Assembly: GCA_017534425.1 (NCBI GenBank) | Contig: JAFXWB010000002.1 | Location: forward strand, 1 to 62,998 | Length of the DNA: 62,998 nucleotides | Reading direction: 5' to 3' | Origin: Bacilli bacterium | GTDB lineage: Bacteria > Bacillota_I > Bacilli_A > RFN20 > CAG-826 | Part shown: one piece after another, positions 2,163 to 35,897 of the stretch | Layout: each line of letters opens with the position of its first letter | Position numbering within the stretch: the first letter of the stretch is position 1 | The notes under the pieces: generated by a model | Told to the model about the DNA's origin: nothing | Database searches by the model: none | Seen by the model: only the letters and a program-made list of their open reading frames with translations | Made by a program: the position numbers and the translations under genes

Positions 2163-2201
2163 AAAAGTAGCTAACACATAAATGTTAGCTACTTTTGTTT
2201 T
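2163..2201 (+). terminator. Rho-independent terminator
   Basis: 11-14 bp stem AAAAGTAGCTAACA / TGTTAGCTACTTTT, 6-nt loop, T-run. Confidence 0.8.
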
Positions 2202-2277
2202 GTACAAAAATTGCACTTCTATTTCATTTTACTTTTCTTCATAACTTTTAAAATTAAATTATGAAGGAGGTAATTAT

Positions 2278-2845: not shown

Positions 2846-2908
2846 GTACCGATTATTCGCTGCAGAGAATAACCGCTAACTTATAAAAATTATAAGGAGG
2901 AATTAAAT

Positions 2909-8806: not shown

Positions 8807-9481
8807 ATGGATAATTCAAATTGTATTTATCAAGGATTATGTAGACATGAATGCCCATCAACATGTATTCAGTGGGTAGAAATGAAGTATATGCTTAAAC
8901 ATAGCAATATACCAAAAGCCAAACAGTGCGTACATAGACTAAAACCAAAAGAATGTGATATACCAGCATTTGAAAGACTTTCTTCAATTCAAATGGACAT
9001 TGAAAATTTTGTTGATAATGGCGGTGTATTATACATTTATAGTAAACAATGCGGTAATGGAAAGACAACTTGGTCTATTAAAATGTTATTACAGTACTTC
9101 AATGAAGTGTGGGACGGAAATGGTTTACATACAAGGGGTATTTTTGTTAATGTTCCATCTTTCATAATGAAGTGTAAAAGTGTAATATCTACACCCGATG
9201 ATGAATTTGAAGAACTTAGGTCACACCTAGATACTGTTGATTTAGTGGTGTTTGATGATGTATCGGCAATAGGGAAAGTGTCCGGATTTGATTATACAAG
9301 TTTATATGGGCATATTGATAGCAGGTGCTTACAAGGAAAAGCAATGATATTTACAGGTAATCATACACCTGAACAATTAAATGAAATACTAGGAGATAGA
9401 TTAGCAAGTCGTATATGTCAAGGTATTAATATTGAGTTAAAGGGAGGAGATATGCGGTCATGGTGCAAGAGCAATTATTGA
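8807..9481 (+). CDS. DnaC/IstB-like AAA+ helicase loader
   Basis: Walker A CGNGKTTW, Walker B DLVVFDDV, Cys-rich N-terminus. Immediately upstream of the DnaB-like helicase. Confidence 0.65.
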   Translation: MDNSNCIYQGLCRHECPSTCIQWVEMKYMLKHSNIPKAKQCVHRLKPKECDIPAFERLSSIQMDIENFVDNGGVLYIYSKQCGNGKTTWSIKMLLQYFNEVWDGNGLHTRGIFVNVPSFIMKCKSVISTPDDEFEELRSHLDTVDLVVFDDVSAIGKVSGFDYTSLYGHIDSRCLQGKAMIFTGNHTPEQLNEILGDRLASRICQGINIELKGGDMRSWCKSNY

Positions 9482-10734
9482 ACTTGGTATTAGCTAAAAA
9501 AGACTTTTCAATATTAGTTGATAACAATATAGACGAAAACTATTTCCCAGAATATATTGATGAATATAATTTTATAAAAGACCATGTTAATGAATATAAA
9601 GTTGTTCCTGATATAGAGTCATTTTGCTCTAAGTTTACAAGTTTCGATGTTTTAGATGTAACTGAAAGTGAAAGGTATTTAGTAAATACAATTCGTGAAG
9701 AGTATTTATACTCAAAAAGTGTTCCCGTAATTAAAAGAGCCGCTGAATTATTAAAGACTGATGCTAATGCAGCTTCACAATATTTACAGTCTGAATTAGT
9801 AAATTTAACACCTAATTACAGTACTCCTAGTGTTGATATTATTCACGATAATTCTCGTATGAACTTGTTTTCTGAAAAAGCACAAAACAAGGATAAGTAT
9901 TTCATACCGACAGGGTTTAAAGAATTGGACGATGTTGTGTGTGGTTGGCAACAAGGCGAGGAATATGTTGTTATATATGCTCGTACAGGAAATGGTAAAT
10001 CATGGGTACTTGTTAAGTCAATGCAACACGCATGGTTAATGGGTAAAAATGTTGGTTATATATCGCCCGAAATGTCGGCGGATAAAATAGGTTATCGTTT
10101 TGATACTTTATATAAACATTTTTCAAATACCGCTTTAACAAGAGGTAATCAGTCCGTAGTTACACTTGATGATTATAACAGTTACTTTGAAGAATTATCG
10201 AAGCAATCAAACAAATTTTTGGTAGCAACACCATTAGATTTTAATAAAAAGATAACTATAAGTAAATTGCGTACTTGGGTTACTAAAAATAAACTTGATG
10301 TTCTTGCAATTGACGGTATCACTTACCTATCTGATGAACGTTATAAAAAAGGAGATAATAAAACAATATCATTAACTAATTTATCAGAAGATTTAATTCA
10401 ATTGAGCGTTGAATTAAAAATCCCTATTTTGGTAGTTGTGCAATCAAACAGGGGTGGTGTAAAAGAGGAAGCAGATGCGACACCAGAACTTGAAGATATT
10501 AGGGATAGTGATGGTATAGCACATAATGCAACTAAAAGCATATCACTTAAAAAGAAAGATGACTCTTTGATTATGTCAATTAAGAAAAATCGTGATGGTG
10601 TTATGGGAACAAAACTTAAATATCAATGGGATGCTGACACCGGAGATTTTCAATATATTCCTGATAATGATATAGATAGACCACAACGTACTGCAAGTAA
10701 ACCGCAAAAACAAGAAGGGAAAGTAGCGTTTTGA
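9460..10734 (+). CDS. dnaB: DnaB-family replicative helicase
   Basis: 424 aa. Walker A ARTGNGKSW, DnaB C-terminal RecA-like domain (LAIDGITYL, VVVQSNRG). Confidence 0.85.
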   Translation: MVQEQLLNLVLAKKDFSILVDNNIDENYFPEYIDEYNFIKDHVNEYKVVPDIESFCSKFTSFDVLDVTESERYLVNTIREEYLYSKSVPVIKRAAELLKTDANAASQYLQSELVNLTPNYSTPSVDIIHDNSRMNLFSEKAQNKDKYFIPTGFKELDDVVCGWQQGEEYVVIYARTGNGKSWVLVKSMQHAWLMGKNVGYISPEMSADKIGYRFDTLYKHFSNTALTRGNQSVVTLDDYNSYFEELSKQSNKFLVATPLDFNKKITISKLRTWVTKNKLDVLAIDGITYLSDERYKKGDNKTISLTNLSEDLIQLSVELKIPILVVVQSNRGGVKEEADATPELEDIRDSDGIAHNATKSISLKKKDDSLIMSIKKNRDGVMGTKLKYQWDADTGDFQYIPDNDIDRPQRTASKPQKQEGKVAF

Positions 10735-13865: not shown

Positions 13866-13874
13866 TTGAAGTGC

Positions 13875-13945
13875 AGGGGTATAGCCAAGCGGTAAGGCGG
13901 AGGACTTTGACTCCTTAATCGTTGGTTCGATTCCAACTATCCCTG
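13875..13945 (+). tRNA. tRNA-Gln (anticodon UUG)
   Basis: Cloverleaf by hand: acceptor AGGGGTA/TATCCCT, D-arm GCC-AAGCGGTAA-GGC, anticodon arm GAGGA-CUUUGAC-TCCTT, T-arm GTTGG-TTCGATT-CCAAC, discriminator G. Close to Firmicute tRNA-Gln. CCA is not encoded. Confidence 0.85.
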
Positions 13946-14461
13946 TTTGTCCTTTATAAGGACATAGAACTCCCATTACATCACATAAAGGTGCAGCCAC
14001 TTTGTAAAAAGTGCTTTATATGATGTAGGAATTTAATTATTAGTTATCATGCAGAGCATAACGAATTTTTAAATTCCAAAGTTGTTTATTATTGTTATGG
14101 TGCTATATCGATAATGAACAATCCTAGCAGTATTATTTTTTATGGTATGATTAACGCTGTGAAAAACTTGTTTATATCAATCGAATCGGCTATTACATAT
14201 CAGATAGCTTGGGTAACTATTAACTTGTGTGGATACCCATAAGATTATTTCATCTTGTGGTTAAGAAAAATAATCGTTTTCAAGTACATGACAACCTGAT
14301 TGATGTAGACCTTATCGTTTAAGTTTCACACTATATCTTCTCACTTCTTCCAAACCGAATAGACTTATAGTGAGGTTTATAAAACGATTTTAAATTGCAA
14401 ACCCATAATCCTTTCCTACCGAGGTTGGGTTGTTTGTTGTTTGTTTTTACCAAAGAGAGGT
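13946..14461 (+). ncRNA. Candidate large structured non-coding RNA (about 515 nt) between a tRNA and a tRNA-like element
   Basis: No ORF on either strand. Hand-found helices are:
- 13948-13964
- 13976-14028 (14 bp, capped by an inner CACTTT-GTAA-AAAGTG GNRA hairpin)
- 14028-14077 (GGAATTTAA/TTAAATTCC)
- 14082-14121 (11 bp)
- a long-range AATCGTTTT/AAAACGATT pairing (about 14272 with about 14382)
- CACTATA/TATAGTG
- ACCCA/TGGGT. Confidence 0.35.
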
Positions 14462-14544: not shown

Positions 14545-14662
14545 TGCGCCCCTTTAGCCCAAAACGTGCGAGTCTTTATGGGACAATAAAGACGGGAACT
14601 AAGGTTGCGTAGTAGTATCAGCAGTGGTACTACTACGACCTATAAAAGAATAAGGAGTGATT

Positions 14663-16954
14663 ATGGCACTATTTGATTTACCAGAATCACGAAGTAATAG
14701 AGAAGCCGACAAAGCTGTTGTTAATAAGACCACCAACAAGCGGTCGGCTTCAATTGTTATGAAAGGTGATGGTATATTAGCTAAAATTTCAGCTATCAAT
14801 GCATTAGTTGAAAGTAAGTTAGGGCAATATAAAAATGAATATGATATTGCATGGGCAGATAATAATGTATTTGATACTGTAATTAAATCTTGTGTTAAGA
14901 ATGGTATATGTGCGATTGATACTGAAACAACCGGACTTAATCCTATTTCAGATGAAATAGTTGGTATGAGTATTTATACTCCTGATGAAAAGGCTATTTA
15001 TATTCCCATTCATCATGTAAGTTATATAACAGGTGTTGAAGTAGAAAATCAAATGCAAATAGATGAAATTCGTAAAGGATTACAATTACTTGTAGATAAT
15101 GATGTAAAAATCATTATGCACAATGCCAAGTTTGATATAAGGGTTATATGGAATAAAATTGGTATTAGACTTAAATGTTGGTTTGATACTCAATTAGCCG
15201 CACAATGCTTAAATGAAAATGAACCGCATAAATTAAAAATACTTCACCCTAAATATGTTCAAGGATTAACTGAAGAACAAAGAAAACAACAAGGTAAATT
15301 GTCGTTTGATGATTTATTTGAAGGTGTAACTTTTGATAAGATACCAATAAAAACGGGATTTGTATATGGTGCAAGGGACTCTATAATAACGTTTGAGTTA
15401 TACGAATTTCAGTTACCTTATTTAACGGTTGATAATCCAAAATGTATTGAGCAAGAATTACAAAGTGTTTGTAATGTATTCTGGAATATTGAAATGCCTT
15501 TTGTTGATGTAATAGTTGATTTAGAGCAAAACGGTATTTCATTAGATGTTGAATATGCACATAAACTTTCTGAAAAATATCATAAAATATTAGACCAAAA
15601 TATGAAAGATTATGAAAGTGTATTAGACAATTATAAAAAAGAAATTGAAGAATATAAAAAGAAAAATGTAAATCATAAATTATCAGACCCAATTTCAGTA
15701 TCAAGTCCAAAACAATTAGCCACTTTGATATATGATATTTTGAAAGTTGAACCACCCGATAAAGATAACCCACGTGGTACGGGAATTGAAATACTTGAAA
15801 AAATTGATAATCCATTATGTAAAGCAATATTAGCATGTAGGAAAACTGAAAAATTACTTAGTACTTATATTGATAAACTGCCTAACGAATTATTAAAAGA
15901 TGGTAAAATACATTGTTCTTTTAATCAATATGGTGCGAAGACAGGTAGGTTAAGTAGTGATAATCCCAACATGCAAAATATTCCATCACATAATAAAGAT
16001 GTGAGAAAAATGTTTGTTGCAAGTCCTGGAAACGTTTTAATATCATGCGATTTTTCACAACAGGAACCTCGTGTAATGACAGCTATGTGTGGTGACCCTG
16101 AAATGAGAAAAGCATATATTGAAGGACGTGATTTGTACGCTAGTATTGCAAGTATAGCATATAATGTATCATATGATGATTGTTTAGAAAAGTTTCCTGA
16201 TGGTACAACTAATCCTGAAGGAAAAGACCGGCGTGATAGTGCAAAAAGTATTTTCTTAGGTGTTTTGTATGGACGTGGTATAAACTCAATTGCAGAACAA
16301 TTACATACTACAAAACAAAAAGCACAAAAGATACAAAGTAGTATATTTAAAGAATTTCCTGCAATTAAACAATTCAGTGAAGATAGTTTAGACATGGTTG
16401 TTGAAAAAGGATATGTTACAACGTTTTGGGGAAGGAAAAGGCGACTTCCTGATATGCAATTACCCGAATATGAGTTTAAGTGGAAACCTGGTTATGGTGA
16501 TATAGACCCATTATCGTTTTATACAGAAGTAACTGAATTAGAAGTACCGGACGATATTGTTGAAGAATATACATATAAACTTAATAACTGTAATTGGAAA
16601 GATAAATCAAATATAAAACAACAAGCTGAAAAAGAAGGTATTATCATTATAGACAATGGTGGTAAAATTGCAGACGCAACCAGGCAAGTTGTTAATTCAC
16701 GTATTCAAGGTAGTGCGGCTGATATGTCAAAAATAGCTGGGATAAATATCAGTAAAAATGAACGATTAAAAGAATTGGGATTTAAATTATTAGTACCAAT
16801 ACATGATGAATACTTAGGCGAATGTCCGTATGAAAATAAAGATGAATGTGTTGAATTATTTAAACAATGCATGTGCGATGCTGCAAAAGAAACAGGATTG
16901 CCAATAAAAGTTGATGTAGTTGTATCTTATGAGTGGTACGGTGAAGCTATTTAA
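14663..16954 (+). CDS. polA: Family A DNA polymerase with 3'-5' exonuclease domain
   Basis: Exo I AIDTETTGL, Exo II HNAKFD, Pol motif A DFSQQEPR, motif B RRDSAKSIFLGVLYG, motif C VPIHDEY. ATG 14663 lies 5 nt after AAGGAG. Confidence 0.9.
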   Translation: MALFDLPESRSNREADKAVVNKTTNKRSASIVMKGDGILAKISAINALVESKLGQYKNEYDIAWADNNVFDTVIKSCVKNGICAIDTETTGLNPISDEIVGMSIYTPDEKAIYIPIHHVSYITGVEVENQMQIDEIRKGLQLLVDNDVKIIMHNAKFDIRVIWNKIGIRLKCWFDTQLAAQCLNENEPHKLKILHPKYVQGLTEEQRKQQGKLSFDDLFEGVTFDKIPIKTGFVYGARDSIITFELYEFQLPYLTVDNPKCIEQELQSVCNVFWNIEMPFVDVIVDLEQNGISLDVEYAHKLSEKYHKILDQNMKDYESVLDNYKKEIEEYKKKNVNHKLSDPISVSSPKQLATLIYDILKVEPPDKDNPRGTGIEILEKIDNPLCKAILACRKTEKLLSTYIDKLPNELLKDGKIHCSFNQYGAKTGRLSSDNPNMQNIPSHNKDVRKMFVASPGNVLISCDFSQQEPRVMTAMCGDPEMRKAYIEGRDLYASIASIAYNVSYDDCLEKFPDGTTNPEGKDRRDSAKSIFLGVLYGRGINSIAEQLHTTKQKAQKIQSSIFKEFPAIKQFSEDSLDMVVEKGYVTTFWGRKRRLPDMQLPEYEFKWKPGYGDIDPLSFYTEVTELEVPDDIVEEYTYKLNNCNWKDKSNIKQQAEKEGIIIIDNGGKIADATRQVVNSRIQGSAADMSKIAGINISKNERLKELGFKLLVPIHDEYLGECPYENKDECVELFKQCMCDAAKETGLPIKVDVVVSYEWYGEAI

Positions 16955-16963: not shown

Positions 16964-17941
16964 ATGAGTTTTGATTTGTATTTAGCATCGGCTGATGATG
17001 CTAAAATAATTGATTATATGTATGAAAATGACTATCCCTTGTTGTATAGTCAGTTGAATAACAGAAATTACATTTTAAAACACTTTGCTGCGCAAGAACA
17101 AAATATAACGCATGGTAAGTTGTTAGTTGATAGCGGTGCGCATTCTGCACATACTAAAGGCGTTAAACTTGATTTAGAAGAGTATATTGGTTTTGTAAAT
17201 GACAATATTGATAAAATGTCTTTATATGTACAAGTAGATAAAATTCCTGGTGTATATCGTAAACCAAAAACTGCAAAAGATTGGCTTGAAGCACCACAAT
17301 TAAGTTGGGAAAATTATTTGTATATGAAGGAAAAATCAAAGGACTGGACTAAACTTGTTCCTGTATTTCATCAAGGAGAGGATTATAAGTGGTTGGAAAA
17401 CTTGTGTGATTATGAGTTTTCAGACGGAAGTCATATACCATATATCGGACTTTCTCCTCGTGGTGATGTATCACTACAAGCTAAATATGATTTTTGTGCT
17501 AAGTGTTTTGCGGTAATTCAGAAAAGTAAAAACCCTAAAGTAAAAACTCATGCATTTGGAGCAACAAGTTTATCAATGTTGGAACGTTTACCATTTACAT
17601 CAGCAGATAGTACAACATGGGTACTTGTATCAGCATTTGGACAGGTGTGGATACCAACAGGAATAACAGGTGAAAGTGTTGATGATACAGTTGGAGTTAA
17701 ATTAGGGGTAAGTAAAGAAAACATAAATCATCAGACTGCAACATGGACATATTGGGAACAAAAACCTGAAATAAAAAAGAAGTTAGACGATTATTTTGAA
17801 AGTATTGGAACTAATATTGAAAAATTGTCTGAAAGTCATTCAGAGCGTAGTTTAGCCAGTGCTAAGTTTTGTCAAAATTGGGCTAAAAATTATCAATATA
17901 AAGGATTAGAAAAATTTACAAGTGTTAAGTCATTATTTTAA
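16964..17941 (+). CDS. dpdA: DpdA-like (TGT-fold) 7-deazaguanine DNA transglycosylase candidate
   Basis: 325 aa, SD AAGGAGG. The motifs LLVDSGAHSAH, VPVFHQGEDYKWLE, YIGLSPRG, THAFGATS and FTSADSTTW match the pattern of phage DpdA / archaeosine-TGT-like proteins. Confidence 0.6.
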   Translation: MSFDLYLASADDAKIIDYMYENDYPLLYSQLNNRNYILKHFAAQEQNITHGKLLVDSGAHSAHTKGVKLDLEEYIGFVNDNIDKMSLYVQVDKIPGVYRKPKTAKDWLEAPQLSWENYLYMKEKSKDWTKLVPVFHQGEDYKWLENLCDYEFSDGSHIPYIGLSPRGDVSLQAKYDFCAKCFAVIQKSKNPKVKTHAFGATSLSMLERLPFTSADSTTWVLVSAFGQVWIPTGITGESVDDTVGVKLGVSKENINHQTATWTYWEQKPEIKKKLDDYFESIGTNIEKLSESHSERSLASAKFCQNWAKNYQYKGLEKFTSVKSLF

Positions 17942-25173: not shown

Positions 25174-26250
25174 ATGGAACTTTCAATTAAAACATTAGAG
25201 TTGCAAGAAATGGTAGACAAAGTGGGAACATGTGTTAGTAATAATAAACTTATCCCACTTACATCATTATTAAGTATTGGTGTAAAAGACAAGCATCTAG
25301 TATTAACTGCTACTGATGCTACAAACTATTTTTATTCTTTAAGTAAATCAGAAGTTGATTGTGAAGATTTTGAAATTGCGGTAATTGCTGATTTGTTTAT
25401 TAAACTTATTCAGAAAATGACTTCTGAAAATATCACTATTACAGTAGATGAAAGTGTTAAGGTAAAAGGTAATGGTAATTATACACTTGCACTTATTTTA
25501 GATGAAAATGGTGGTAACATTAAATTTCCTAAAAAGTTTAGTCTTGATGAATTTAGAAATGATGGTGGTACATTAAAATTAACAACAATTAACACTATTT
25601 TGAATTATAATAAGCCATCACTTGCCACAAGTTTATCATTACCTGCACTTACTATGTATTATTGTGGCGATAAAGTAATTACTTCTGATAGATCAAAAAT
25701 GTGTTCTACACAAGTGAAAACATTCGATAAACCATATTTGATTTCTGCGAAACTAATGGAATTGTTAAGTAAAATGTCTGATGAAGATATTATGGTACTT
25801 ACAACTGATAAAGACTTAATATTTAGAACATCAAATGAGCTGATATATTCACCGATTGCAGACGGTATTGAAACTTTCCCTGTTAAAGTACTTGATGATT
25901 TAAGTACAAGTGCATTTCCATCAACTTGTAAAGTATCAAGGTCAGCTGTTGTAGAGGTACTTGATAGACTTGCATTGTTTGTTTCCGCATATGATAAAAA
26001 GGTAATAACACTTACATTTACACGTGATGGAATAATGTTTAGCAGTAAAAATTCTGATGGTGTTGAATTGATACCTTATATTTCAAGTACTGATTTTAAA
26101 GATTATCAATGTAGTTTAGATGTTGAAATGCTTAAATCACAAATTGCAACTCAATCAGAAGATGCTATTGAAATTGCATATGGCTCAGAAGTTGCGGTTA
26201 AATTGATATTGAATAATGTTATCCAAATTATAGCACTTGCGGAGGAATAA
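25174..26250 (+). CDS. dnaN: DNA polymerase III beta-type sliding clamp
   Basis: 358 aa, SD AAGGAGG. The N-terminus (LIPLTSLLSIGVKDKHLVLTATDATNYF) and the three-domain length are typical of DnaN. Confidence 0.7.
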   Translation: MELSIKTLELQEMVDKVGTCVSNNKLIPLTSLLSIGVKDKHLVLTATDATNYFYSLSKSEVDCEDFEIAVIADLFIKLIQKMTSENITITVDESVKVKGNGNYTLALILDENGGNIKFPKKFSLDEFRNDGGTLKLTTINTILNYNKPSLATSLSLPALTMYYCGDKVITSDRSKMCSTQVKTFDKPYLISAKLMELLSKMSDEDIMVLTTDKDLIFRTSNELIYSPIADGIETFPVKVLDDLSTSAFPSTCKVSRSAVVEVLDRLALFVSAYDKKVITLTFTRDGIMFSSKNSDGVELIPYISSTDFKDYQCSLDVEMLKSQIATQSEDAIEIAYGSEVAVKLILNNVIQIIALAEE

Positions 26251-28236: not shown

Positions 28237-28335
28237 ATGTTAGTAAATCCGTTTTACATGGGAATTTTTGTAACTTTAGCATGTGAAGCAATACTAATTA
28301 TAGTTGTTGCGATTATTTATGGAAGGAGGAAGTGA
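28237..28335 (+). CDS. 32-aa TM peptide (below the ORF-track cutoff)
   Basis: SD AAAGGAG. MLVNPFYMGIFVTLACEAILIIVVAIIYGRRK. Its stop overlaps the recA ATG. Confidence 0.35.
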   Translation: MLVNPFYMGIFVTLACEAILIIVVAIIYGRRK

Positions 28336-29441
28336 TGTCTAAACTTGATGAAATCGTAAAACAAGTTAATAAAGATTGGAAAGAGAATATAGCATCAAGA
28401 GGTGTAATATGGAAAAAATTACCTAAAATACCATTTACAAGTCCGAGATTAAATTATATGTTGTACGGTGGTATTCAGCGAGGACGTTTACATGAGTTTT
28501 CAGGACCGGAAGGTGGCGGTAAAACATCAACTGCATTAGATTTATGTAAAAATGCTCAAAAGTTGTTTCAAGAGGAATATGCAGAAAAACTGTCTAACGC
28601 AAAAGATGAAAAAGAAAAAGCATTTATTGAAGCAATAGGTCCACAAAAAGTAGTTTACGCTGATTGTGAAAATACACTTGATGAAGATTGGGCAAGGACA
28701 TTAGGTGTTGATGTAGATGGTATGTACATATTGAAACCACAAACACAAGCGGCAGAAGATATATTTCAAATAGTATTAGATATGCTTAATACAGGTGAAT
28801 GTGGTTTAGCTATAATTGATAGTTTGGGTGTTATGATGTCTAAACAAGCATATGAAAAAAGTATGGACGAAAAAACATATGGTGGTATATCAATGCCCCT
28901 TACATTGTTTAGTAAGAAAGCAGAACTTGCCTGTCATAAATATAATGCTACTGTTATCGGTATAAATCAAGAGCGTGCTGATATGAATAATCCTTATGGA
29001 GGTACAACAACACCAGGAGGTATGGGTTGGAAATACAATTGTACAACTAGATTGAGATTTTCAAAAGGTGATTTATTAGATGAAGACGGTAATAAATTAA
29101 CCCGTAGTTCAGAATTTGCAGCCGGGAATCGTGTAATGGTAGGTTTACTTAAACAAAAAGGGGATAAACCTGATAGGCGGTTAAGTTTTTATACATTAAC
29201 CTATAAAAATGGTATTGATGAAATAGCTGATTTGATTGAAGTTGCTCTTAAATATGGCTACATTCAAAAAGGTGGAGCATGGTTTAGTTTTGTTGATATA
29301 GAAACAGGTGAAGTTGTTACCGATGAAGAAGGTAAAGAGATTAAAGTACAAGGGCAATCAAATGTAGCTAAGTTACTTAGAGAAAATGATGTACTACTTG
29401 ATGAATTAAGAGCACAAATTGAAGGAGCAATGAATGGATAA
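28335..29441 (+). CDS. recA: RecA-family recombinase
   Basis: Walker A GPEGGGKTS, Walker B LAIIDSLG, RecA core length. ATG 28335 lies 5 nt after AAGGAGG. Confidence 0.8.
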   Translation: MSKLDEIVKQVNKDWKENIASRGVIWKKLPKIPFTSPRLNYMLYGGIQRGRLHEFSGPEGGGKTSTALDLCKNAQKLFQEEYAEKLSNAKDEKEKAFIEAIGPQKVVYADCENTLDEDWARTLGVDVDGMYILKPQTQAAEDIFQIVLDMLNTGECGLAIIDSLGVMMSKQAYEKSMDEKTYGGISMPLTLFSKKAELACHKYNATVIGINQERADMNNPYGGTTTPGGMGWKYNCTTRLRFSKGDLLDEDGNKLTRSSEFAAGNRVMVGLLKQKGDKPDRRLSFYTLTYKNGIDEIADLIEVALKYGYIQKGGAWFSFVDIETGEVVTDEEGKEIKVQGQSNVAKLLRENDVLLDELRAQIEGAMNG

Positions 29442-29967
29442 ATTATTATTACATAGTTGTTGTGCTCCTTGTAGTAGTGCCATAGTAGAAGAGCTATATA
29501 AACATTTTGATTTGACTTTGTATTACTATAATCCTTGTATAACAGATAAAGACGAGTATTATAAAAGGGCAGATGAATTAAAGAAATTTAGAAATAAAGC
29601 TACTATTATTATCGGTCCACATACACCTAATGCATTTTTTGAAATGGCAAAAGGAATGGAGCATTTTCCTGAAGGTGGTGCTAGATGTAGGTTGTGTTAT
29701 TATCAACGACTTAACAAAACTGCTGCATATGCAAAACAAAATGATTTTAGATATTTTTCTACAACATTAACTATTAGTCCTTATAAGGATTCTGCTACAA
29801 TAAATGCAATAGGTAAACAATGCGGATGGGATAATGATGTAATGTATATGCCTTTTGATTTTGGTTACTTATATATAAAGTCGTTGCAACTATGCAAAGA
29901 ATACAACTTGTATCAGCAAGATTATTGCGGATGCCCATATTCAAAGAATAACTGCACTCAACCTTGA
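29434..29967 (+). CDS. queH: QueH-type (DUF208) epoxyqueuosine reductase homologue
   Basis: LLLHSCCAPCS, YYYNPCI, GGARCRLCYYQRL, FSTTLTISPYK, YQQDYCGCPYS: the QueH Cys pattern. Confidence 0.75.
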   Translation: MDKLLLHSCCAPCSSAIVEELYKHFDLTLYYYNPCITDKDEYYKRADELKKFRNKATIIIGPHTPNAFFEMAKGMEHFPEGGARCRLCYYQRLNKTAAYAKQNDFRYFSTTLTISPYKDSATINAIGKQCGWDNDVMYMPFDFGYLYIKSLQLCKEYNLYQQDYCGCPYSKNNCTQP

Positions 29968-30883: not shown

Positions 30884-31858
30884 ATGCCTAAAGTAAGAAT
30901 ACTTTTTACACAAGAACAAGATATATGGTTGTATAGTCAAAGTAGGGCAAAAAAGTGGAAAAGTATAGCTGATTTTACAAATGCATTTAATAAAGCGTTC
31001 GGTGTTTCAAAATCACCGGACGCTATTGCAAATCATATGCGTAGGCAAAATATGCCTAAGGTTGATTGTCTTACTACTGATTTTAATAAAGCGTGGTCTA
31101 AAGAATATAGAGAATGGATTGAAAATAATCTTAATACAGGTGTATTTAAAGATAAAAAGCATTTCTTAAAAGTGTTTAATGCGGTCTTTAATGAAACAAA
31201 AACCTTAAATGCATTAACACAATATATGAAGAAAAATAATCTAACACTTAGTACACCATACAATTTAGCACGCTATACTGAAGAACAAGAAGAATGGATA
31301 AAAGAAAATTGCTCTAAGTATGAAGTGTTTGCAGAATTTGTTAAAGACTTTAACCTTAAATTTGGCACAAGTAAATCACATTCAGGATTAACTAGCAAAT
31401 GTGAAAGTTTAGGGTTAAGGTTTTCTAACCCCTCAAGACGCAGGAATAGTGGTAACTTCAAAAAGGGAATAAACTATGGCATAGAAGAATGCCCTATAGG
31501 AACTATACGTCTTAATAAACAAACTAATCTTTATTATATCAAAGTACAGTTGTGCAATGGTATAGCACCAAGAGAGAACGGTCATAATTATAAGGAACCA
31601 TATTGGAAGATGTTGCAGAATAAAATATGGGAAGATAATTATGGTAAAATACCTGATGGGTATATAGCATGTTCATTAACTAATGACCCCTATGAACAAA
31701 ATATTGAGAATATTGCGCTTATAGATAAAAGAGGAAAAAGTGTGATGGGTAGAAAAGAGTGGTGGTCAGATAATGCTAAGTTTACTGCAACAGGTGTTCA
31801 GTGGTGTAATCTGTATTTTACTGCAAAAGACAATGGGGTATTAAGTGATGAAAAATAA
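30884..31858 (+). CDS. HNH_3-like homing-endonuclease-related protein with three Myb/SANT-like N-terminal repeats
   Basis: Three repeats of about 50 aa (W..E...W/I....F...F...F......L...M....). The C-terminal segment KIWEDNYGKIPDGYIACSLTNDPYEQNIENIALID resembles the HNH_3 core, but the first His is replaced. Confidence 0.45.
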   Translation: MPKVRILFTQEQDIWLYSQSRAKKWKSIADFTNAFNKAFGVSKSPDAIANHMRRQNMPKVDCLTTDFNKAWSKEYREWIENNLNTGVFKDKKHFLKVFNAVFNETKTLNALTQYMKKNNLTLSTPYNLARYTEEQEEWIKENCSKYEVFAEFVKDFNLKFGTSKSHSGLTSKCESLGLRFSNPSRRRNSGNFKKGINYGIEECPIGTIRLNKQTNLYYIKVQLCNGIAPRENGHNYKEPYWKMLQNKIWEDNYGKIPDGYIACSLTNDPYEQNIENIALIDKRGKSVMGRKEWWSDNAKFTATGVQWCNLYFTAKDNGVLSDEK

Positions 31859-32195: not shown

Positions 32196-32406
32196 ACATC
32201 AATTAGTTAAAGAACATCTGATAAAACATGGTAGTATCACAAGTTGGGAAGCAATACAGAAGTACGGTGCAACACGATTGTCTGCAATTATCTTCAATTT
32301 GCGTAAACATGGTTATGATATTGATACTATAATGCGTGAAGAAAGTGATAGATATGGTAATACTTGTCAGTATGCTAATTATGTTTTGAAAGGGATTGAA
32401 AAATGA
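32188..32406 (+). CDS. Small winged-helix DNA-binding protein
   Basis: 72 aa. GSITSWEAIQKYGATRLSAIIFNLRKHGYDI. Confidence 0.45.
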   Translation: MNKHQLVKEHLIKHGSITSWEAIQKYGATRLSAIIFNLRKHGYDIDTIMREESDRYGNTCQYANYVLKGIEK

Positions 32407-32936
32407 GTGAAGCATTAGCTATTAAATATCGTCCTAAAACATTTGATGATGTTACAGAACAAGGCGCAATTAAAACTATATTAGAGCAACAATTAAAAAG
32501 TAATGATATTAAGCATGGTTATTTGTTTTGTGGACCTTCGGGCTGTGGGAAGACAACAGCAGCCAGGATATTTGCAAATGAAATTAACAAAGGAAAAGGT
32601 TCACCAATTGAACTTGATGCTGCAAGTAATAATAGCGTGGATGATATTAGGGAAATGACGGAAGAAGCGCAAAGGCGTTCATTAGATAGTGATTATAAGA
32701 TTTTTATTTTGGACGAGGCGCACATGATAACACCACAAGGATTTAATGCGTTTTTGAAAACACTTGAAGAACCACCTGCAATGACTATATTCATCATGTG
32801 TACAACTGACCCAGAACGTATACCTAAAACCATTTTGAGCCGAGTTCAGCGTTACAATTTTCAGAAAATAAGTACGCAAGGTATTGTGAATAGGTTGACT
32901 TATATACTTGAGCAGGAAGGTTATACTTGTGAATAA
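32403..32936 (+). CDS. dnaX: Clamp-loader large subunit (DnaX-like), N-terminal AAA+ fragment
   Basis: YRPKTFDDV, Walker A GPSGCGKTT, Walker B FILDEAHM, LEEPP, TILSRVQRY. The homology stops at ...LEQEG, followed by 4 non-homologous residues and a stop. Confidence 0.85.
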   Translation: MSEALAIKYRPKTFDDVTEQGAIKTILEQQLKSNDIKHGYLFCGPSGCGKTTAARIFANEINKGKGSPIELDAASNNSVDDIREMTEEAQRRSLDSDYKIFILDEAHMITPQGFNAFLKTLEEPPAMTIFIMCTTDPERIPKTILSRVQRYNFQKISTQGIVNRLTYILEQEGYTCE

Positions 32937-33640
32937 TTACATTGTCTATAAGCATACAAGTCCTTCAAATAAAGTGTATATAGGAATAACTTGTAGGACT
33001 ATGCAAACTCGAGCTGGAAAAGATGGTGTAGGTTATTTTGGTAATGAATATTTTAAGAGAGCAATTCAGAAATATGGATGGGATAATTTTAAGCATGAAG
33101 TATTGTATGAAAACCTCACTAAACAACAAGCTTGTGATAAAGAAATAGAGCTGATATCTAAATATAAATCTACGAATGAAAGATTTGGGTATAATATTTG
33201 TGCTGGTGGTGAAGGTAGGTTAGAAAGTAAGCAATCAGAAGAAACCAAGAAGAAAATATCGGAAGCATCGAAAAAACATTGGGCAAATCCTGAAACTCGG
33301 CAAAAAATAATTGAAAGTCTTAAAGGAAGGGAAGTTTCAGAGGAAACTAAAAATAAAATAAAGGAAGCTAAGATAGGTAAATATGTACCGCCGGAAGTAG
33401 GAAGAAAAATAAGCGAAACCAAGAAGGGTAAACATCCGTGGAATTATGGTAAAAAGTGTGGCCCACGTTCTTAAGAAACTAAAGCAAAAATTAGTGCTTA
33501 TAATAAGGGAAAAACAATATCGGACGAACAGAAACAAGCCATTAGTAAAAAACTTAAGGGTCGTGAAATTACTCCGGAACATCGAGCCAAAATTAGTGCA
33601 ACTTTGAAAGCACGAAATGCAGAGAGGAGGAAGCGGAATG
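32922..33640 (+). mobile_element. Free-standing GIY-YIG homing endonuclease insertion that splits the dnaX-like gene
   Basis: The 719-nt intervening sequence sits between in-frame dnaX homology blocks and is almost entirely occupied by the endonuclease reading frame. Confidence 0.6.
32929..33474 (+). CDS. GIY-YIG homing endonuclease with NUMOD3 repeats (in-frame TAA at 33472; frame stays open to 33651)
   Basis: GTG 32929 lies 8 nt after AGGAAGG. YIVYKHTSPSNKVYIGIT, R...H, FGYNICAGGEG, followed by NUMOD3-like repeats. Three more repeats follow the TAA in the same frame. Confidence 0.7.
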   Translation: MNNYIVYKHTSPSNKVYIGITCRTMQTRAGKDGVGYFGNEYFKRAIQKYGWDNFKHEVLYENLTKQQACDKEIELISKYKSTNERFGYNICAGGEGRLESKQSEETKKKISEASKKHWANPETRQKIIESLKGREVSEETKNKIKEAKIGKYVPPEVGRKISETKKGKHPWNYGKKCGPRS

Positions 33641-34141
33641 AAAACATATAGTAAAGAGGCTGTTGAATATATAGCTAAATTATGTGATGGCGGGCTTAGG
33701 GATGGCATTACACTTCTCGATAAGTGTTTAGCATATTCAAACGAATTGACTCTTCAAAATGTAGTATCAGCTCTTGGTGTTGTTGACTATGATTGTATGA
33801 TTGAATTAACTGATATTATAACCGATAAAAATACTCAAGCAATGATAGTTTCTGTTGAAAATATATATAATAGTGGTAAAGACATTAAACAATTCGTTAA
33901 GCAATACGTTCAGTTTTTATTAGACGTAAATAAGTACTTTGTAGGTTGTAGTTGGGAGTATATTGGTATTCCAAAACTTGAGAAGTATGAAGCATGGTTA
34001 AAAGATAATTGTACTGAATATTATGTGAATAAAATACGTGATTTACTTTCCACTATGGTTGATTTAGACGGTAGGATAAAATACAGTAGTTCACCTAAAT
34101 ATGATATTGAAGCTACACTACTTTTGGAGATTACAAAATGA
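33638..34141 (+). CDS. dnaX: Clamp-loader large subunit (DnaX-like), C-terminal fragment
   Basis: ATG 33638 lies 7 nt after GAGGAGG. KTYSKEAVEYIAKLCDGGLRDGITLLDK continues the DnaX domain II/III consensus exactly where the N-fragment stops. Confidence 0.75.
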   Translation: MKTYSKEAVEYIAKLCDGGLRDGITLLDKCLAYSNELTLQNVVSALGVVDYDCMIELTDIITDKNTQAMIVSVENIYNSGKDIKQFVKQYVQFLLDVNKYFVGCSWEYIGIPKLEKYEAWLKDNCTEYYVNKIRDLLSTMVDLDGRIKYSSSPKYDIEATLLLEITK

Positions 34142-34965
34142 TTGGACAAAAAGAATTAATAATGAGGTTAAATGATTTAATAAATATTGGTAAATTCCCT
34201 AGTTTTTGTATATTAGTCGGTCCTCGTGGTAGTGGTAAAAAGTTGATGGCGGATAATATTGTATCCTGGTTAAAATCATCTGATATGTATCCTAATCATA
34301 TTGTTAAATATACATTACCAGATTTAAGGGTTGATACAGTTAGACAAATGATTGAAGATGCGTATACTATAAAAGAGTTTACTGTAATGATAATAGAAGA
34401 CGCAGATACAATGTCATTAAATGCTAAAAATGCATTGTTGAAAATAACTGAAGAACCGCCTGAAAATGTTATATTCATAATGACTTTAAGAGATTTGTCT
34501 AACACTTTACCGACAATAAAAAGTCGAGCAAATTACTTTCAAATGGACATATATACAATAGACGAGATTTTAGAGTATGCAAAATTGTCTAACGAAGATT
34601 CAAGAATTTTGTCGGTATGTGAAACACCCGGGGAAGTTGATTTGATGAAAAAATGTGGAATAAAAGAATTGTCTGAATATGTTAATCTTGTTATTGATAA
34701 TATTGCAGAAGTTCAGCCAGCAAATGCATTTAAAAGTTCATCTAAACTTGCATTGAAAACAGATGAAGGTATTGATTTAGGATTATTTTGGAAAGTATTT
34801 ATAGACCAATGTGCATACAGGATGATATATGGTGGGGATAAAAAGAAATATGCGCAAGGAGTATTGTGTACTGCTGATTTTGTTAAATGTTTGAATAGTA
34901 ATAATGTTAATAAATCTCAATTATATGATTCTTGGGTATTTGATATACGAAAGGTTTGGGGATAA
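34138..34965 (+). CDS. holB: Clamp-loader small subunit (delta-prime-like AAA+)
   Basis: Walker A GPRGSGKK, MIIEDAD, LKITEEPP, TIKSRA. Confidence 0.6.
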   Translation: MIGQKELIMRLNDLINIGKFPSFCILVGPRGSGKKLMADNIVSWLKSSDMYPNHIVKYTLPDLRVDTVRQMIEDAYTIKEFTVMIIEDADTMSLNAKNALLKITEEPPENVIFIMTLRDLSNTLPTIKSRANYFQMDIYTIDEILEYAKLSNEDSRILSVCETPGEVDLMKKCGIKELSEYVNLVIDNIAEVQPANAFKSSSKLALKTDEGIDLGLFWKVFIDQCAYRMIYGGDKKKYAQGVLCTADFVKCLNSNNVNKSQLYDSWVFDIRKVWG

Positions 34966-35897
34966 TGGACTTATTAGAACTAAAAAGTCAAATAATGCAC
35001 AATGAATTATCTAATTTTTATATATTTACAGGTACTGAAATCAGTATTCAGCGAATATATTTAAATCAAATTTCTAAAGTACTCAATATGCCAATAAATC
35101 GAGTAGATAGCGTAGCGAGTATATATGGCATGTGTACAACAAAAGGACTATTTGGTAATACAAATAGTCTTTATGTAATTAGAGAAGACCGAGATATAAT
35201 GAAACAAGAAAAAGTATATGAAACATTATCAAAAGACATAGGCGGTAATGTGATTATACTATTGTATGAAAAGATTGATAGTAGGTTAAAGTTTGGTAAA
35301 TACTTTAAAAACGTAATTGTTCCTTTTGAAAAACTGTCTAACAATGTCCTTAAAATGTACATTAAAAAAGAAATTGACCTCGACCAAAAACACCTCGAAG
35401 ACTTGTCTAACAAAGTTTCTGGCTCATATGACATTGCGCTGCTCGAAGCGGATAAGATAAAAAAATTCAGCGAAGCACAAAACATTTCAGCAAATTCTGC
35501 AATGGATAAACTTGTTCAGATGGGAATGATTGTACAAGAAGAAGATACTGATGTATTTAGATGGGTTGCGGCTGTAATGAATAGACAGGTTACATTGTCG
35601 TTTCATTTAGCTAAAATTTTATTAAATAAAGGAACTCAGCCAATAAATATGTTAGGTACTTTATATAATAGTGTAAAAACAGTACTATTAATTCAATGTT
35701 GTGAAGGCAGAGATATTAGTGGTATTACCGGATTAGATGGTGGTCAGATATATTTCAATAAACCATATATTAATGTATATCAAACATATGAATTGGTAGA
35801 TAGTATGAAGAGGCTTTCGAGAATCATCAATAATATAAAAAATGGTACAATTGATAATCAATTTGCTATTGATTTAGCGCTGACACAGATGCTTTGA
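34965..35897 (+). CDS. holA: Clamp-loader delta-like subunit
   Basis: TAATG-coupled ATG 34965. The length of about 310 aa and the N-terminal FYIFTGTE..IQRIYLNQI pattern are typical of HolA. Position follows the other loader subunits. Confidence 0.45.
   Translation: MDLLELKSQIMHNELSNFYIFTGTEISIQRIYLNQISKVLNMPINRVDSVASIYGMCTTKGLFGNTNSLYVIREDRDIMKQEKVYETLSKDIGGNVIILLYEKIDSRLKFGKYFKNVIVPFEKLSNNVLKMYIKKEIDLDQKHLEDLSNKVSGSYDIALLEADKIKKFSEAQNISANSAMDKLVQMGMIVQEEDTDVFRWVAAVMNRQVTLSFHLAKILLNKGTQPINMLGTLYNSVKTVLLIQCCEGRDISGITGLDGGQIYFNKPYINVYQTYELVDSMKRLSRIINNIKNGTIDNQFAIDLALTQML

What the first reader, a model, noticed from the sequence alone, without database searches (positions are those of the whole stretch)
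32403..34141. Clamp-loader large subunit cleanly split into two separately translated genes by a free-standing GIY-YIG endonuclease gene
**What the sequence shows.**
- DnaX homology runs to ...RLTYILEQEG (ending at nt 32921), followed by 4 foreign residues and a stop.
- Homology resumes exactly at KTYSKEAVEYIAKLCDGGLRD from ATG 33638, which has its own strong SD (GAGGAGG, 7 nt upstream).
- Joining 32921 to 33641 would be in frame with nothing missing.
- The 719-nt insert is filled by the endonuclease frame (GTG 32929, frame open to 33651), which leaves no room for a group I ribozyme core.

**Inference.** This looks like gene fragmentation caused by a homing endonuclease, comparable to the split nrdA and topoisomerase genes of T-even phages. 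It implies a clamp loader assembled from two polypeptides.
Basis: partly seen in the sequence, partly recalled or inferred. Interest (0 to 1): 0.65.

Follow-up and report, generated by a model that had tools for sequence, protein, structure and literature searches.

The report
Phage clamp-loader gene split by endonuclease
A gut phage's clamp-loader ATPase gene (dnaX) is cut into two separately translated genes by a selfish, mobile GIY-YIG homing-endonuclease gene; this is a new example of the known "genes in pieces" phenomenon, and here the endonuclease gene carries a premature stop codon.

Summary
The core observation holds, with two corrections. DnaX homology runs one codon further than reported, to Y174 at nt 32924, so the insert is 32925-33640 (716 nt). 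The endonuclease frame is not open to 33651. An in-frame TAA at 33472-33474 truncates it to 181 codons where 16 orthologue clusters read E, D or Q.

The insert is a free-standing GIY-YIG/NUMOD3 homing endonuclease gene, not an intron:
- Neither the window nor five orthologous loci match any Rfam group I model.
- The insert RNA has no excess structure (z = +1.17).
- No guide sequence is conserved.
- Third codon positions vary most in every 20-codon block of the insert.

Five other distinct phage contigs carry the same gene at the same dnaX site. Each has a stop just after EGY and a ribosome-binding site plus ATG for the downstream half. Thousands of relatives have an uninterrupted dnaX of about 340 aa.

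Two of those contigs share a practically identical endonuclease gene plus 37 and 95 nt of flank, while the rest of their dnaX differs at about 60% of synonymous sites. That pattern indicates recent homing with co-conversion.

The split lies in a loop of the AAA+ lid domain. Splicing and assembly of the two polypeptides remain untested experimentally. This is a new member of a known kind.

The parts
32403..32936 (+). dnaX-N cistron (177 aa). It holds the Walker A motif GPSGCGKTT, the Walker B motif ILDEAH, sensor 1, the SRV arginine-finger motif and the first lid helix. Native dnaX sequence ends at Y174 (nt 32924) and is followed by TCE and a TAA stop.
   Evidence: Pfam DNA_pol3_delta2 E 6e-31 and AAA E 4.5e-16. 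phrog_5846 positions 3-170 of 380. Alignment to uninterrupted homologues.
32914..32920 (+). AGGAAGG, a Shine-Dalgarno-like sequence for the endonuclease gene, 8 nt before GTG 32929. It is made of the dnaX codons for Q-E-G.
   Evidence: Read directly from the sequence. All six split loci have AGGAGGG or AGGAAGG at this position.
32925..33640 (+). Inserted homing-endonuclease cassette (716 nt), absent from uninterrupted dnaX alleles.
   Evidence: Junction defined against L009/P0083 (EGY|KKY) and L001. Orthologous inserts in the other loci measure 716-722 nt.
32929..33474 (+). Truncated GIY-YIG/NUMOD3 homing endonuclease ORF (GTG start, 181 codons). The catalytic domain keeps all invariant residues, including Y7, Y17, R28, E72 and N89.
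   Evidence: NUMOD3 E 2e-12. GIY-YIG E 1.3e-3, which is below the Pfam cutoff. phrog_314 E 8e-33. Orthologues of 239-249 aa at 61-78% identity. Invariant columns.
33472..33474 (+). In-frame TAA nonsense codon at HEG codon 182. The orthologues have E, D or Q at this position.
   Evidence: Present without differences in contigs from runs X1-X4 and X5.
33475..33651 (+). Untranslated remnant of the HEG 3' coding part (58 codons and TAG, same frame). It carries further NUMOD3-like repeats, a W-to-H change at a conserved Trp, and the translation signals for dnaX-C. Its stop codon lies inside the dnaX-C sequence.
   Evidence: NUMOD3 E 5e-6. Alignment with 16 orthologue clusters. Codon-type variation across codons 181-240 among orthologues.
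33625..33630 (+). AGGAGG Shine-Dalgarno sequence for dnaX-C, 7 nt before ATG 33638.
   Evidence: SD-like purine runs precede the downstream ATG in all six split loci.
33638..34141 (+). dnaX-C cistron (167 aa). An added Met is followed by the rest of the lid domain, including the sensor-2 motif GGLRD, and the collar domain III.
   Evidence: DNAX_ATPase_lid positions 17-48 of 49 and DNA_pol3_gamma3. phrog_5846 positions 176-287. Alignment.
34138..35897 (+). Downstream clamp-loader partner genes. The delta'-like gene is 34138..34965 and the delta-like gene is 34956..35897. Both overlap their neighbours, and no + strand terminator-like site lies in between.
   Evidence: Pfam DNA_pol3_delta2 E 2e-20 and DNA_pol3_delta_C E 9e-7. 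phrog_20214. Terminator scan.

Best explanation
**What it is.** A free-standing GIY-YIG homing endonuclease gene (HEG) has inserted into the phage's dnaX gene. It has an I-TevI/Seg-like catalytic domain followed by NUMOD3 DNA-binding repeats. dnaX encodes the gamma-type clamp-loader ATPase.

**Where it sits.** The insertion lies between the codons for Y174 and the following K. In the protein this is the loop between the first and second helices of the AAA+ lid domain.

**What the cassette supplies.**
- A stop codon for the upstream half.
- Its own start codon, GTG 32929. This start uses the dnaX Q-E-G codons as its ribosome-binding site (SD) and overlaps the dnaX-N stop, which suggests translational coupling.
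- An AGGAGG plus ATG at its 3' end that restarts translation of the downstream half.

**Consequence.** dnaX is therefore expressed as two polypeptides from one transcript.
- DnaX-N (177 aa) carries the P-loop, Walker B, sensor 1 and the arginine finger.
- DnaX-C (167 aa) carries sensor 2, the rest of the lid and the collar.
- I infer that the two associate non-covalently, through the lid helical bundle, to form a working gamma subunit alongside the phage's delta', delta and beta.

**Spread and decay.** The element spreads among related gut and rumen phages by cleaving HEG-less dnaX alleles and being copied in by recombinational repair, dragging short flanks with it. In this window the HEG is decaying. 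A GAA-to-TAA nonsense mutation at codon 182 removes the most conserved part of the DNA-binding region. Its 3' remnant persists and still provides the start signals for dnaX-C.

**Shown versus inferred.**
- Shown: the architecture, orthology, site identity, mobility signature and coding-type evolution of the insert.
- Inferred: absence of splicing, translation of both halves, their assembly, and loss of endonuclease activity.
For: **The architecture is real and recurrent**
- Both halves match contiguous parts of clamp-loader profiles.
- Fused, they align over 98-99% of their length with thousands of uninterrupted proteins of 340-350 aa.
- Six distinct loci share the arrangement: the window, L003 (=L004), L005, L006, L007 (=L008) and L011.
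- In all six, the N fragment ends EGY plus 3-4 foreign residues and a stop, the orthologous HEG follows, and an SD plus ATG starts the C fragment.
- The C-terminal tails of most of the 16 HEG orthologue clusters (NENL, NENI and similar) are what dnaX-C sequence encodes in the HEG's frame. That indicates the same insertion site.

**The HEG is mobile**
- L003 and L011 have HEGs with no synonymous differences (pS 0.000), plus identical flanks of 37 nt upstream and 95 nt downstream.
- The rest of their dnaX differs at pS of about 0.57-0.60.
- The window's nearest dnaX relative, L001, has no HEG.

**It is not an intron**
- No Rfam hit at E up to 10 in the window or up to 5 in five orthologous loci.
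- Third-position variation exceeds first, which exceeds second, in every 20-codon block across the whole insert.
- The insert RNA folds no better than shuffled sequence (z +1.17).
- No conserved P1 or guide-sequence pairing exists; the best matches are 4 bp at non-homologous positions.

**Both halves are maintained**
- Both ORFs are intact in all six loci.
- dN/dS is 0.08-0.13 for N and 0.22-0.48 for C, similar to comparisons with unsplit alleles.

**The site is structurally permissive**
- An AlphaFold model of the uninterrupted P0083 (pLDDT 89) places the junction in loop 172-177, between helices 157-171 and 178-188.
- This segment varies in length among homologues.

**Other points**
- The nonsense codon is real: 16 orthologue clusters read E, D or Q there, and contigs from several runs carry the TAA.
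- No + strand terminator-like site lies between the cistrons.
- HEG-split phage genes that still function are documented precedents (PMC2988022).
Against: - No RNA or protein data bear directly on this phage.
  - The only metatranscriptome signal is a 307-nt contig of a related variant that crosses the 5' junction unspliced.
  - That could be pre-mRNA or contaminating DNA.
- The exon-1 end is U and the insert ends in G in all six loci. This fits group I splice-site rules, although both are also forced by the TAT and ATG codons.
- dN/dS between split alleles includes time before each insertion, so post-split constraint is not isolated.
- C fragments are much more diverged (35-55% aa identity, 68% for L003/L011) than N fragments.
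- The endonuclease domain match to Pfam GIY-YIG is below the curated cutoff for this copy (19.5 bits against 22.6).
- No solved structure matched the endonuclease by sequence.
Confidence: 0.78

Rival explanations
1. dnaX is a pseudogene. The HEG insertion killed it, the two ORFs are non-functional leftovers, and the phage relies on the host clamp loader or needs none.
For: - There is no expression or assembly evidence.
- C fragments evolve fast, with dN/dS up to 0.48 and 35-55% aa identity in most pairs.
- The HEG can be re-seeded by homing, so its presence alone does not prove that the split host gene works.
Against: - Both halves are full-length and free of stops or frameshifts in six diverged loci.
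- The HEG family has diverged to near synonymous saturation (pS 0.53-0.80) while residing at this one site.
- An SD plus ATG for the C fragment is preserved in every locus, and by a different solution in L007.
- dN/dS is well below 1 and similar to comparisons with unsplit alleles.
- The partner genes delta', delta and beta are intact.
Confidence: 0.12
2. The insert is a mobile group I intron whose ribozyme overlaps the endonuclease coding sequence. The mRNA is spliced and a single DnaX protein is made.
For: - The last exon-1 base is U and the last insert base is G in all six loci.
- Related endonucleases are often annotated by their sources as 'group I intron endonuclease'.
- Phage replication genes commonly host such introns (general knowledge).
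Against: - No match to any Rfam intron model in six loci, even at permissive E-values.
- Every 20-codon block of the insert shows coding-type variation, with third positions free to vary at 0.33-0.54.
- There is no excess RNA structure (z +1.17) and no conserved guide sequence.
- Only 4-8 nt precede the HEG start, and the HEG stop lies in exon 2.
- A conserved SD plus ATG placed exactly at the downstream junction, and a conserved stop after the upstream one, would be unnecessary if the RNA were spliced.
Confidence: 0.05
3. The halves are rejoined some other way, such as split-intein trans-splicing or translational bypassing, or the structure is an assembly or sequencing artefact.
For: - 'Fractured genes' with a HEG between split-intein halves exist in metagenomes (PMC2677866, abstract).
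- T4 gene 60 shows translational bypassing (general knowledge).
Against: - Only 3 residues (TCE) follow the native N half and only Met precedes the native C half. That leaves no room for intein halves.
- A gap of 716 nt is far beyond known bypassing.
- Separately assembled contigs match with zero differences.
- Five other loci from other samples share the architecture.
Confidence: 0.02

Closest known systems
Aeromonas phage Aeh1 nrdA-a / mobE / nrdA-b (split ribonucleotide reductase large subunit)
   Same: A free-standing homing endonuclease gene sits inside an essential DNA-metabolism gene that is contiguous in related phages. It produces two separately translated polypeptides. The split NrdA was shown to be fully functional (PMC2988022).
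   Different: - The host gene here is an AAA+ clamp-loader ATPase, not RNR.
- The endonuclease family is GIY-YIG/NUMOD3, whereas MobE is HNH.
- The phage group differs: Dp-1/phiCTP1-like gut phages rather than T4-like.
- Function of the split product is untested here.
T4 gene 39 / mobA / gene 60 (split topoisomerase subunit) and phage 25 gene 43A / seg43 / 43B (split DNA polymerase)
   Same: Replication genes are split at a HEG insertion, and the pieces reassemble. The 43A and 43B products co-purify (PMC2988022).
   Different: - For gene 43, the HEG may have invaded a gene that was already split.
- Here, HEG-less alleles are all contiguous, and the HEG cassette itself supplies the stop and restart signals.
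- No translational bypass element is involved.
I-TevI / Seg-type GIY-YIG homing endonucleases of T-even phages
   Same: - An N-terminal GIY-YIG catalytic domain with the expected invariant Tyr, Tyr, Arg, Glu and Asn.
- A C-terminal modular DNA-binding region with NUMOD3 repeats.
- Homing with co-conversion of flanks.
- Best hits among isolated phages are annotated as Seg-like or GIY-YIG endonucleases, at 35-52% identity.
   Different: - It is not intron-encoded, unlike I-TevI.
- It shares at most 52% identity with any isolate-phage protein.
- This copy is truncated by a nonsense codon.
- The cleavage site and activity are unknown.
Fractured genes: a HEG between split-intein halves (Dassa et al. 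2009, PMC2677866)
   Same: A metagenomic gene, often a replication gene, is broken in two with a free-standing HEG in the gap.
   Different: No intein halves are present. The extensions are 3 aa and 1 aa, so the products cannot be ligated by protein splicing.
Bacterial DnaX (gamma/tau) clamp-loader subunit, e.g. E. coli gamma (PDB 1JR3, 1NJF, 3GLI)
   Same: - Same domain order and motifs.
- phmmer E 2e-43 to E. coli gamma/tau.
- Encoded next to delta' and delta homologues and a beta clamp.
   Different: - It is gamma-length only (about 340 aa).
- Its alignment to E. coli gamma skips about 15 residues (chain residues 67-80). From memory, this is where the Zn module lies.
- It is encoded as two polypeptides, split at the position aligning to about E194/H195 of E. 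coli gamma.

Membership tests
Free-standing GIY-YIG homing endonuclease gene | GIY-YIG catalytic domain with conserved Tyr, Tyr, Arg, Glu and Asn | tested here: met
   - All 23 invariant N-terminal columns of a 30-sequence alignment are present in the window copy, including Y7, Y17, R28, E72 and N89.
- PHROG homing-endonuclease families match: phrog_314 at E 8e-33 and phrog_5123 (GIY-YIG) at E 9e-8.
- The Pfam GIY-YIG score of 19.5 bits is below the 22.6 cutoff for this copy.
- PF01541 is on record for orthologues P0125 and P0131.
Free-standing GIY-YIG homing endonuclease gene | Not embedded in a self-splicing intron or an intein | tested here: met
   - No Rfam intron hit in six loci.
- Coding-type variation across the whole insert.
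- Folding z-score +1.17.
- No conserved guide sequence.
- No room for intein halves.
- Splicing was not tested on RNA.
Free-standing GIY-YIG homing endonuclease gene | Presence/absence polymorphism at a fixed site, with evidence of horizontal transfer (homing, co-conversion) | tested here: met
   - Six loci share the same site, against thousands of uninterrupted alleles.
- L003 and L011 have an identical HEG and flanks within diverged dnaX.
Free-standing GIY-YIG homing endonuclease gene | Site-specific cleavage of the HEG-less allele | not testable with these tools
   This needs an in vitro cleavage assay. The window copy is truncated at codon 182 and is probably inactive.
HEG-generated 'genes in pieces' (Aeh1 nrdA type) | The host gene is contiguous in relatives, and the halves are collinear with nothing missing | tested here: met
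   - Fused halves align over 98-99% of their length with proteins of 340-350 aa.
- P0083 reads EGY|KKYEKEAL across the junction.
HEG-generated 'genes in pieces' (Aeh1 nrdA type) | Each half has its own translation stop and start signals | tested here: met
   - TAA at 32934-32936.
- AGGAGG at 33625-33630 and ATG at 33638.
- Equivalent signals in all six loci.
HEG-generated 'genes in pieces' (Aeh1 nrdA type) | The two polypeptides reassemble into an active enzyme | not testable with these tools
   Only indirect support is available:
- Both ORFs are intact with dN/dS well below 1.
- The split lies in an inter-helix loop.
Group I intron with an intron-encoded endonuclease | Conserved ribozyme core (P3-P9) and P1 guide pairing | tested here: not met
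   - No hit to any Rfam model at E up to 10 in the window or up to 5 in five other loci.
- No block with suppressed third-position variation.
- No excess structure.
- P1-like pairing is no better than in shuffled sequence.
Group I intron with an intron-encoded endonuclease | U at the end of the 5' exon and G at the end of the intron | tested here: inconclusive
   Both are present in all six loci. Both are also dictated by the TAT (Tyr) and ATG (start) codons, so this does not discriminate.
Split-intein 'fractured gene' | N- and C-intein halves flanking the break | tested here: not met
   The non-native extensions are TCE (3 aa) and Met (1 aa) only.
DnaX (gamma-type) clamp-loader subunit | AAA+ module with Walker A, Walker B, sensor 1, an SRC-type arginine finger and sensor 2, plus a collar domain, encoded alongside delta and delta' | tested here: met
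   - Pfam DNA_pol3_delta2, AAA, DNAX_ATPase_lid and DNA_pol3_gamma3 all match.
- E 2e-43 to E. coli gamma/tau structures.
- The motifs GPSGCGKTT, ILDEAH, SRV and GGLRD are read from the sequence.
- delta' and delta lie downstream, and a beta clamp is at 25174..26250.

The most novel reading that the evidence does not exclude
The split has outlived its cause. In this lineage the endonuclease is dead, through a nonsense codon at residue 182 and loss of a conserved Trp. The phage nevertheless keeps a two-piece gamma subunit whose AAA+ lid, including sensor 2, is supplied in trans. The HEG's 3' remnant is retained because it now serves as the intercistronic translation-initiation region for DnaX-C. 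This would be a natural, obligate fragment-complemented clamp-loader ATPase, and an example of a host gene becoming dependent on a selfish element's leftovers.
Probability: 0.3. Interest if true: 0.55.

Novelty: new member of a known kind. Interest (0 to 1): 0.45.

Why it matters
**For homing-endonuclease biology.** HEG-driven "genes in pieces" are known from a handful of T4-like phage genes. This extends the phenomenon to a bacterial-type clamp-loader ATPase in uncultured Dp-1/phiCTP1-like gut and rumen phages.
- It provides a clean natural data set: at least 6 loci, about 16 HEG clusters and thousands of empty sites.
- Within it, active homing, co-conversion tract length and HEG decay can all be read directly from metagenomes.

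**For AAA+ enzymology.** It offers a naturally permissive split point in the lid domain. The split separates the P-loop and arginine-finger module from sensor 2 and the collar, which could be exploited for fragment-complementation or mechanistic studies of clamp loaders.

**For annotation.** Split dnaX halves in such phages should not be called pseudogenes by default.

Tried and rejected
- **Near-identical DNA in isolate phages.** Megablast of the region against 50,697 phage records found nothing. Only distant protein-level relatives exist, namely Dp-1, MS1 and phiCTP1 at about 45%.
- **RNA-level test of splicing.**
  - Only one metatranscriptome (X8, bovine gut) holds related sequence. It gives fragmentary contigs, one crossing the 5' junction unspliced and none showing a joint at the HEG borders.
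  - A second attempt through L011 was uninformative. Its single joint, 2125 to 3481, is not at the junction and has a 20-nt side, so it is probably a cross-match between paralogous AAA+ genes.
- **Sequence match of the HEG to solved structures.** Neither the single sequence nor a 30-sequence profile gave a significant hit.
- **Stop-codon recoding or suppression of the TAA.** Rejected. The only tRNA is tRNA-Gln(TTG), and TAA is used as an ordinary stop, for example at the end of dnaX-N.
- **TTG 32908 as the HEG start.** Rejected in favour of GTG 32929, which aligns with the ATG starts of L003, L007 and L011.
- **A clear co-conversion tract in the window itself.** Only a modest dip in identity to L001 appears within about 100 nt of the junction (57-70% against about 80%). 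This is suggestive, not conclusive.
Full report
**1. What is in the sequence**

The ORFs listed and the sequence give this layout on the + strand:
- ATG 32403 to TAA 32934-32936, 177 codons.
- GTG 32929 to TAA 33472-33474, 181 codons.
- The same frame then continues to TAG 33649-33651.
- ATG 33638 to TGA 34139-34141, 167 codons.
- Two overlapping genes follow, at 34138..34965 and 34956..35897.

Family searches identify the pieces:
- The first ORF is the N-terminal part of a DnaX/gamma clamp-loader subunit. It matches Pfam DNA_pol3_delta2 (E 6e-31), AAA (E 4.5e-16), and phrog_5846 positions 3-170 of 380.
- The third ORF is the remainder. It matches DNAX_ATPase_lid positions 17-48 of 49, DNA_pol3_gamma3, and phrog_5846 positions 176-287.
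- The middle ORF is a GIY-YIG/NUMOD3 homing endonuclease. It matches NUMOD3 (E 2e-12) and phrog_314 (E 8e-33). Its Pfam GIY-YIG score of 19.5 bits is just under the curated cutoff.
- The two downstream genes are delta'-like and delta-like.

The window is a phage genome segment of about 63 kb at 32.5% GC, with all long ORFs on one strand. It carries DnaB, PolA, a beta clamp and a RecA-like gene. Its DnaX is about 45% identical to those of Streptococcus phages Dp-1 and MS1 and Clostridium phage phiCTP1.

**2.

Most of it stands. The fused halves align over 98-99% of their length with thousands of uninterrupted proteins of 340-350 aa from metagenomic phage contigs. The best is P0001, at 78% identity and E 4e-172. 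AGGAGG at 33625-33630 lies 7 nt before ATG 33638.

Two details are wrong.

The first is the junction position.
- Homology continues through Y174 (TAT, 32922-32924).
- All split alleles end in EGY, and EGY is common among uninterrupted homologues.
- One uninterrupted homologue, P0083, reads QQEGY|KKYEKEAL, against the window's EQEGY|(M)KTYSKEAV.
- The insert is therefore 32925-33640 (716 nt), with three foreign residues (TCE) before the stop.

The second is the endonuclease frame.
- It is interrupted by an in-frame TAA at 33472-33474.
- Contigs from four runs match the region with zero differences, and a fifth run covers the TAA itself. Three of the four look like the same data.
- So the stop codon is not an assembly error in this window.

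**3. The arrangement recurs**

The closest homologues of the read-through endonuclease are 239-249 aa long, 61-78% identical, and cover 97-100% of the 240 codons. I looked up the genomic context of four of them and found one more in IMG/VR.
- Every one sits between a dnaX-N ORF of 176-178 aa and a dnaX-C ORF of 164-169 aa. These are L003 (=L004), L005, L006, L007 (=L008) and L011.
- All six loci, counting the window, share the same design:
  - The dnaX codons (C)AGGAGGG or AGGAAGG serve as the endonuclease's Shine-Dalgarno sequence.
  - The endonuclease start is GTG, TTG or ATG, 4-8 nt after TAT.
  - The dnaX-N stop overlaps endonuclease codons 2-3.
  - The endonuclease 3' end contains a purine-rich SD and the ATG of dnaX-C.
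  - The endonuclease stop lies a few codons into dnaX-C.
- L007 uses a different ATG, 15 nt further upstream, with its own AAAGGAG. The function (restart of translation) is conserved rather than the sequence.
- The C-terminal tails of most of the 16 orthologue clusters (NENL, NENI, GDI and similar) are what dnaX-C sequence encodes in the endonuclease frame. This implies the same insertion site for them as well.

**4. The endonuclease gene is mobile**

- L003 and L011 have endonuclease genes with no synonymous differences (pS 0.000). Their dnaX-N and dnaX-C differ at pS 0.60 and 0.57, and dnaX-C is only 68% identical in protein.
- The nucleotide alignment shows one block with a single mismatch. 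It runs from 37 nt upstream of the insert to 95 nt downstream. Flanks at about 80-85% and 60-70% identity surround it. This is the signature of recent homing with co-conversion of flanking markers.
- The window's nearest dnaX relative, L001 (82% and 72% aa identity for the two halves), is uninterrupted.
- Identity between the window and L001 dips from about 80% to 57-70% within about 100 nt of the junction. That is compatible with an older co-conversion tract.

**5. Intron or free-standing gene?**

Four independent tests argue against a group I intron.
- *Rfam.* No family is matched at E up to 10 in window 32000-34500, nor at E up to 5 in the five other loci. Only tRNAs and chance hits appear.
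- *Codon-position variation.* In a codon alignment of the six endonuclease genes, mean pairwise differences are 0.23, 0.16 and 0.45 at positions 1, 2 and 3.
  - Position 3 is the most variable (0.33-0.54) in every 20-codon block from codon 1 to 240.
  - So no stretch carries the extra nucleotide-level constraint that a ribozyme core would impose.
- *RNA folding.* The 716-nt insert folds no better than its dinucleotide shuffles (z +1.17).
- *Guide sequence.* No conserved internal guide sequence exists. The best P1-like pairings are 4 bp at non-homologous positions, and 25-79% of shuffles do as well.

The U before and G at the end of the insert fit group I rules. They are also forced by the Tyr codon TAT and the start codon ATG.

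A stop conserved just after the upstream junction, and an SD plus ATG conserved at the downstream junction, would serve no purpose in a spliced gene.

A split intein is excluded because the extensions are only 3 and 1 residues. Translational bypassing across 716 nt is implausible.

RNA data could not settle the matter. The single relevant metatranscriptome gives fragmentary contigs, one crossing the 5' junction unspliced and none joined.

**6. State of the endonuclease in this window**

- The catalytic domain retains every invariant residue of a 30-sequence alignment (Y7, H9, Y17, G19, R28, E72, N89 and others).
- Codon 182 is TAA where all 16 orthologue clusters have E, D or Q, in the motif S-E/D-ETKAKIS. 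This lies in the most conserved protein segment, codons 161-200.
- Downstream, a Trp conserved in 14 of 15 orthologues (TPEW) is His in the window.
- No suppressor tRNA is encoded. The only tRNA is tRNA-Gln(TTG).

I conclude that this copy is a decaying endonuclease gene that has lost about a quarter of its DNA-binding region. Loss of activity is an inference. Its 3' remnant still carries the SD and ATG on which dnaX-C depends.

**7. How the split gene probably works**

- No + strand terminator-like site lies between 31800 and 36200. The cistrons overlap or abut, so one transcript probably carries dnaX-N, the endonuclease gene, dnaX-C, delta' and delta.
- DnaX-N holds the Walker A motif GPSGCGKTT, the Walker B motif ILDEAH, sensor 1 and the SRV arginine-finger motif.
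- DnaX-C holds GGLRD (sensor 2), the remaining lid helices and the collar.
- In an AlphaFold model of the uninterrupted P0083 (mean pLDDT 89), the junction falls in loop 172-177, between helices 157-171 and 178-188. It aligns to about E194/H195 of E. coli gamma.
- This loop is the most length-variable part of the protein family, which makes it a structurally permissive site.
- Reassembly through the lid helical bundle is therefore plausible but untested.
- Both halves are intact in all six loci. dN/dS is 0.08-0.13 for N and 0.22-0.48 for C, similar to comparisons that involve unsplit alleles.
- The endonuclease family has diverged to near synonymous saturation (pS 0.53-0.80) while apparently living only at this site. 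This argues that split dnaX is compatible with phage viability over long periods.

**8. Comparison with what is known**

- This matches the "genes in pieces" cases reviewed for T4-like phages: mobE in nrdA of Aeh1 (shown to be functional), mobA between genes 39 and 60 of T4, and seg43 in gene 43 of phage 25 (PMC2988022).
- It differs from "fractured genes", which carry split inteins (PMC2677866).
- Full-text searches found no paper describing a dnaX or clamp-loader gene split by a homing endonuclease.
- No isolated phage in the collection carries this endonuclease. The best match is 52% identity over part of the protein.
- I classify it as a new member of a known kind.

**9. Verdict**

The finding is real.
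- Confidence that this is a free-standing endonuclease gene splitting dnaX into two translated cistrons: about 0.78.
- Main rival, a pseudogene: about 0.12.
- Group I intron: about 0.05.
- Interest is moderate at 0.45. It is a tidy, well-populated natural example, with some value for AAA+ and clamp-loader studies and for the study of homing dynamics, but it is not a new principle.

Noticed in passing
window 30884..31858 (+): A 324-aa ORF matches the PHROG HNH endonuclease family phrog_1891 (E 2e-20) but has no Pfam hit. It sits where the closest HEG-less relative, L001, has only a 60-aa ORF (L001 9093..9275). It is probably a second free-standing homing endonuclease gene, about 0.5 kb upstream of dnaX.
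   Followed up: partly
window 29434..29967 and 16964..17941 (+): The window encodes QueH, an epoxyqueuosine reductase (Pfam E 6e-55), and a queuine tRNA-ribosyltransferase-like gene (phrog_887, E 1e-45). These suggest a 7-deazaguanine pathway. From memory, phage Dp-1, whose DnaX is a distant relative, carries similar genes; this was not checked here.
   Followed up: no
window 9460..10734, 14657..16954, 25174..26250, 28332..29441: The phage carries a bacterial-type sliding clamp and a gamma/delta'/delta clamp loader. It combines them with a family A (PolA-type) DNA polymerase, a DnaB-like helicase and a RecA-like protein. The PolA Pfam match comes in two stretches, which was not examined.
   Followed up: no
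window 33577..33582 (HEG remnant, codons for E-H): A Trp conserved in 14 of 15 orthologous endonucleases (motif TPEW) is His in the window copy, downstream of the nonsense codon. This fits relaxed constraint after truncation.
   Followed up: partly
L003 5211..5459; L006 5237..5440: Two of the split-dnaX relatives carry an extra small ORF (82 and 67 aa, no Pfam hit) between dnaX-C and delta'. The window and L001 lack it.
   Followed up: no
L007 262..1053 and 2772..2922: This relative has another GIY-YIG/NUMOD3 endonuclease gene and two tRNA genes a few kb upstream of its split dnaX. These phages appear to be rich in homing endonuclease genes.
   Followed up: no
window 32830..33725 compared with L001: Nucleotide identity to the nearest uninterrupted relative is about 80% across the region. 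It drops to 57-70% within about 100 nt on either side of the endonuclease insertion. This may be an old co-conversion tract from the donor genome.
   Followed up: partly
window 13874..13946 (+): A single tRNA gene, tRNA-Gln(TTG), is present. No suppressor tRNA was found, so the in-frame TAA in the endonuclease gene is unlikely to be decoded.
   Followed up: yes
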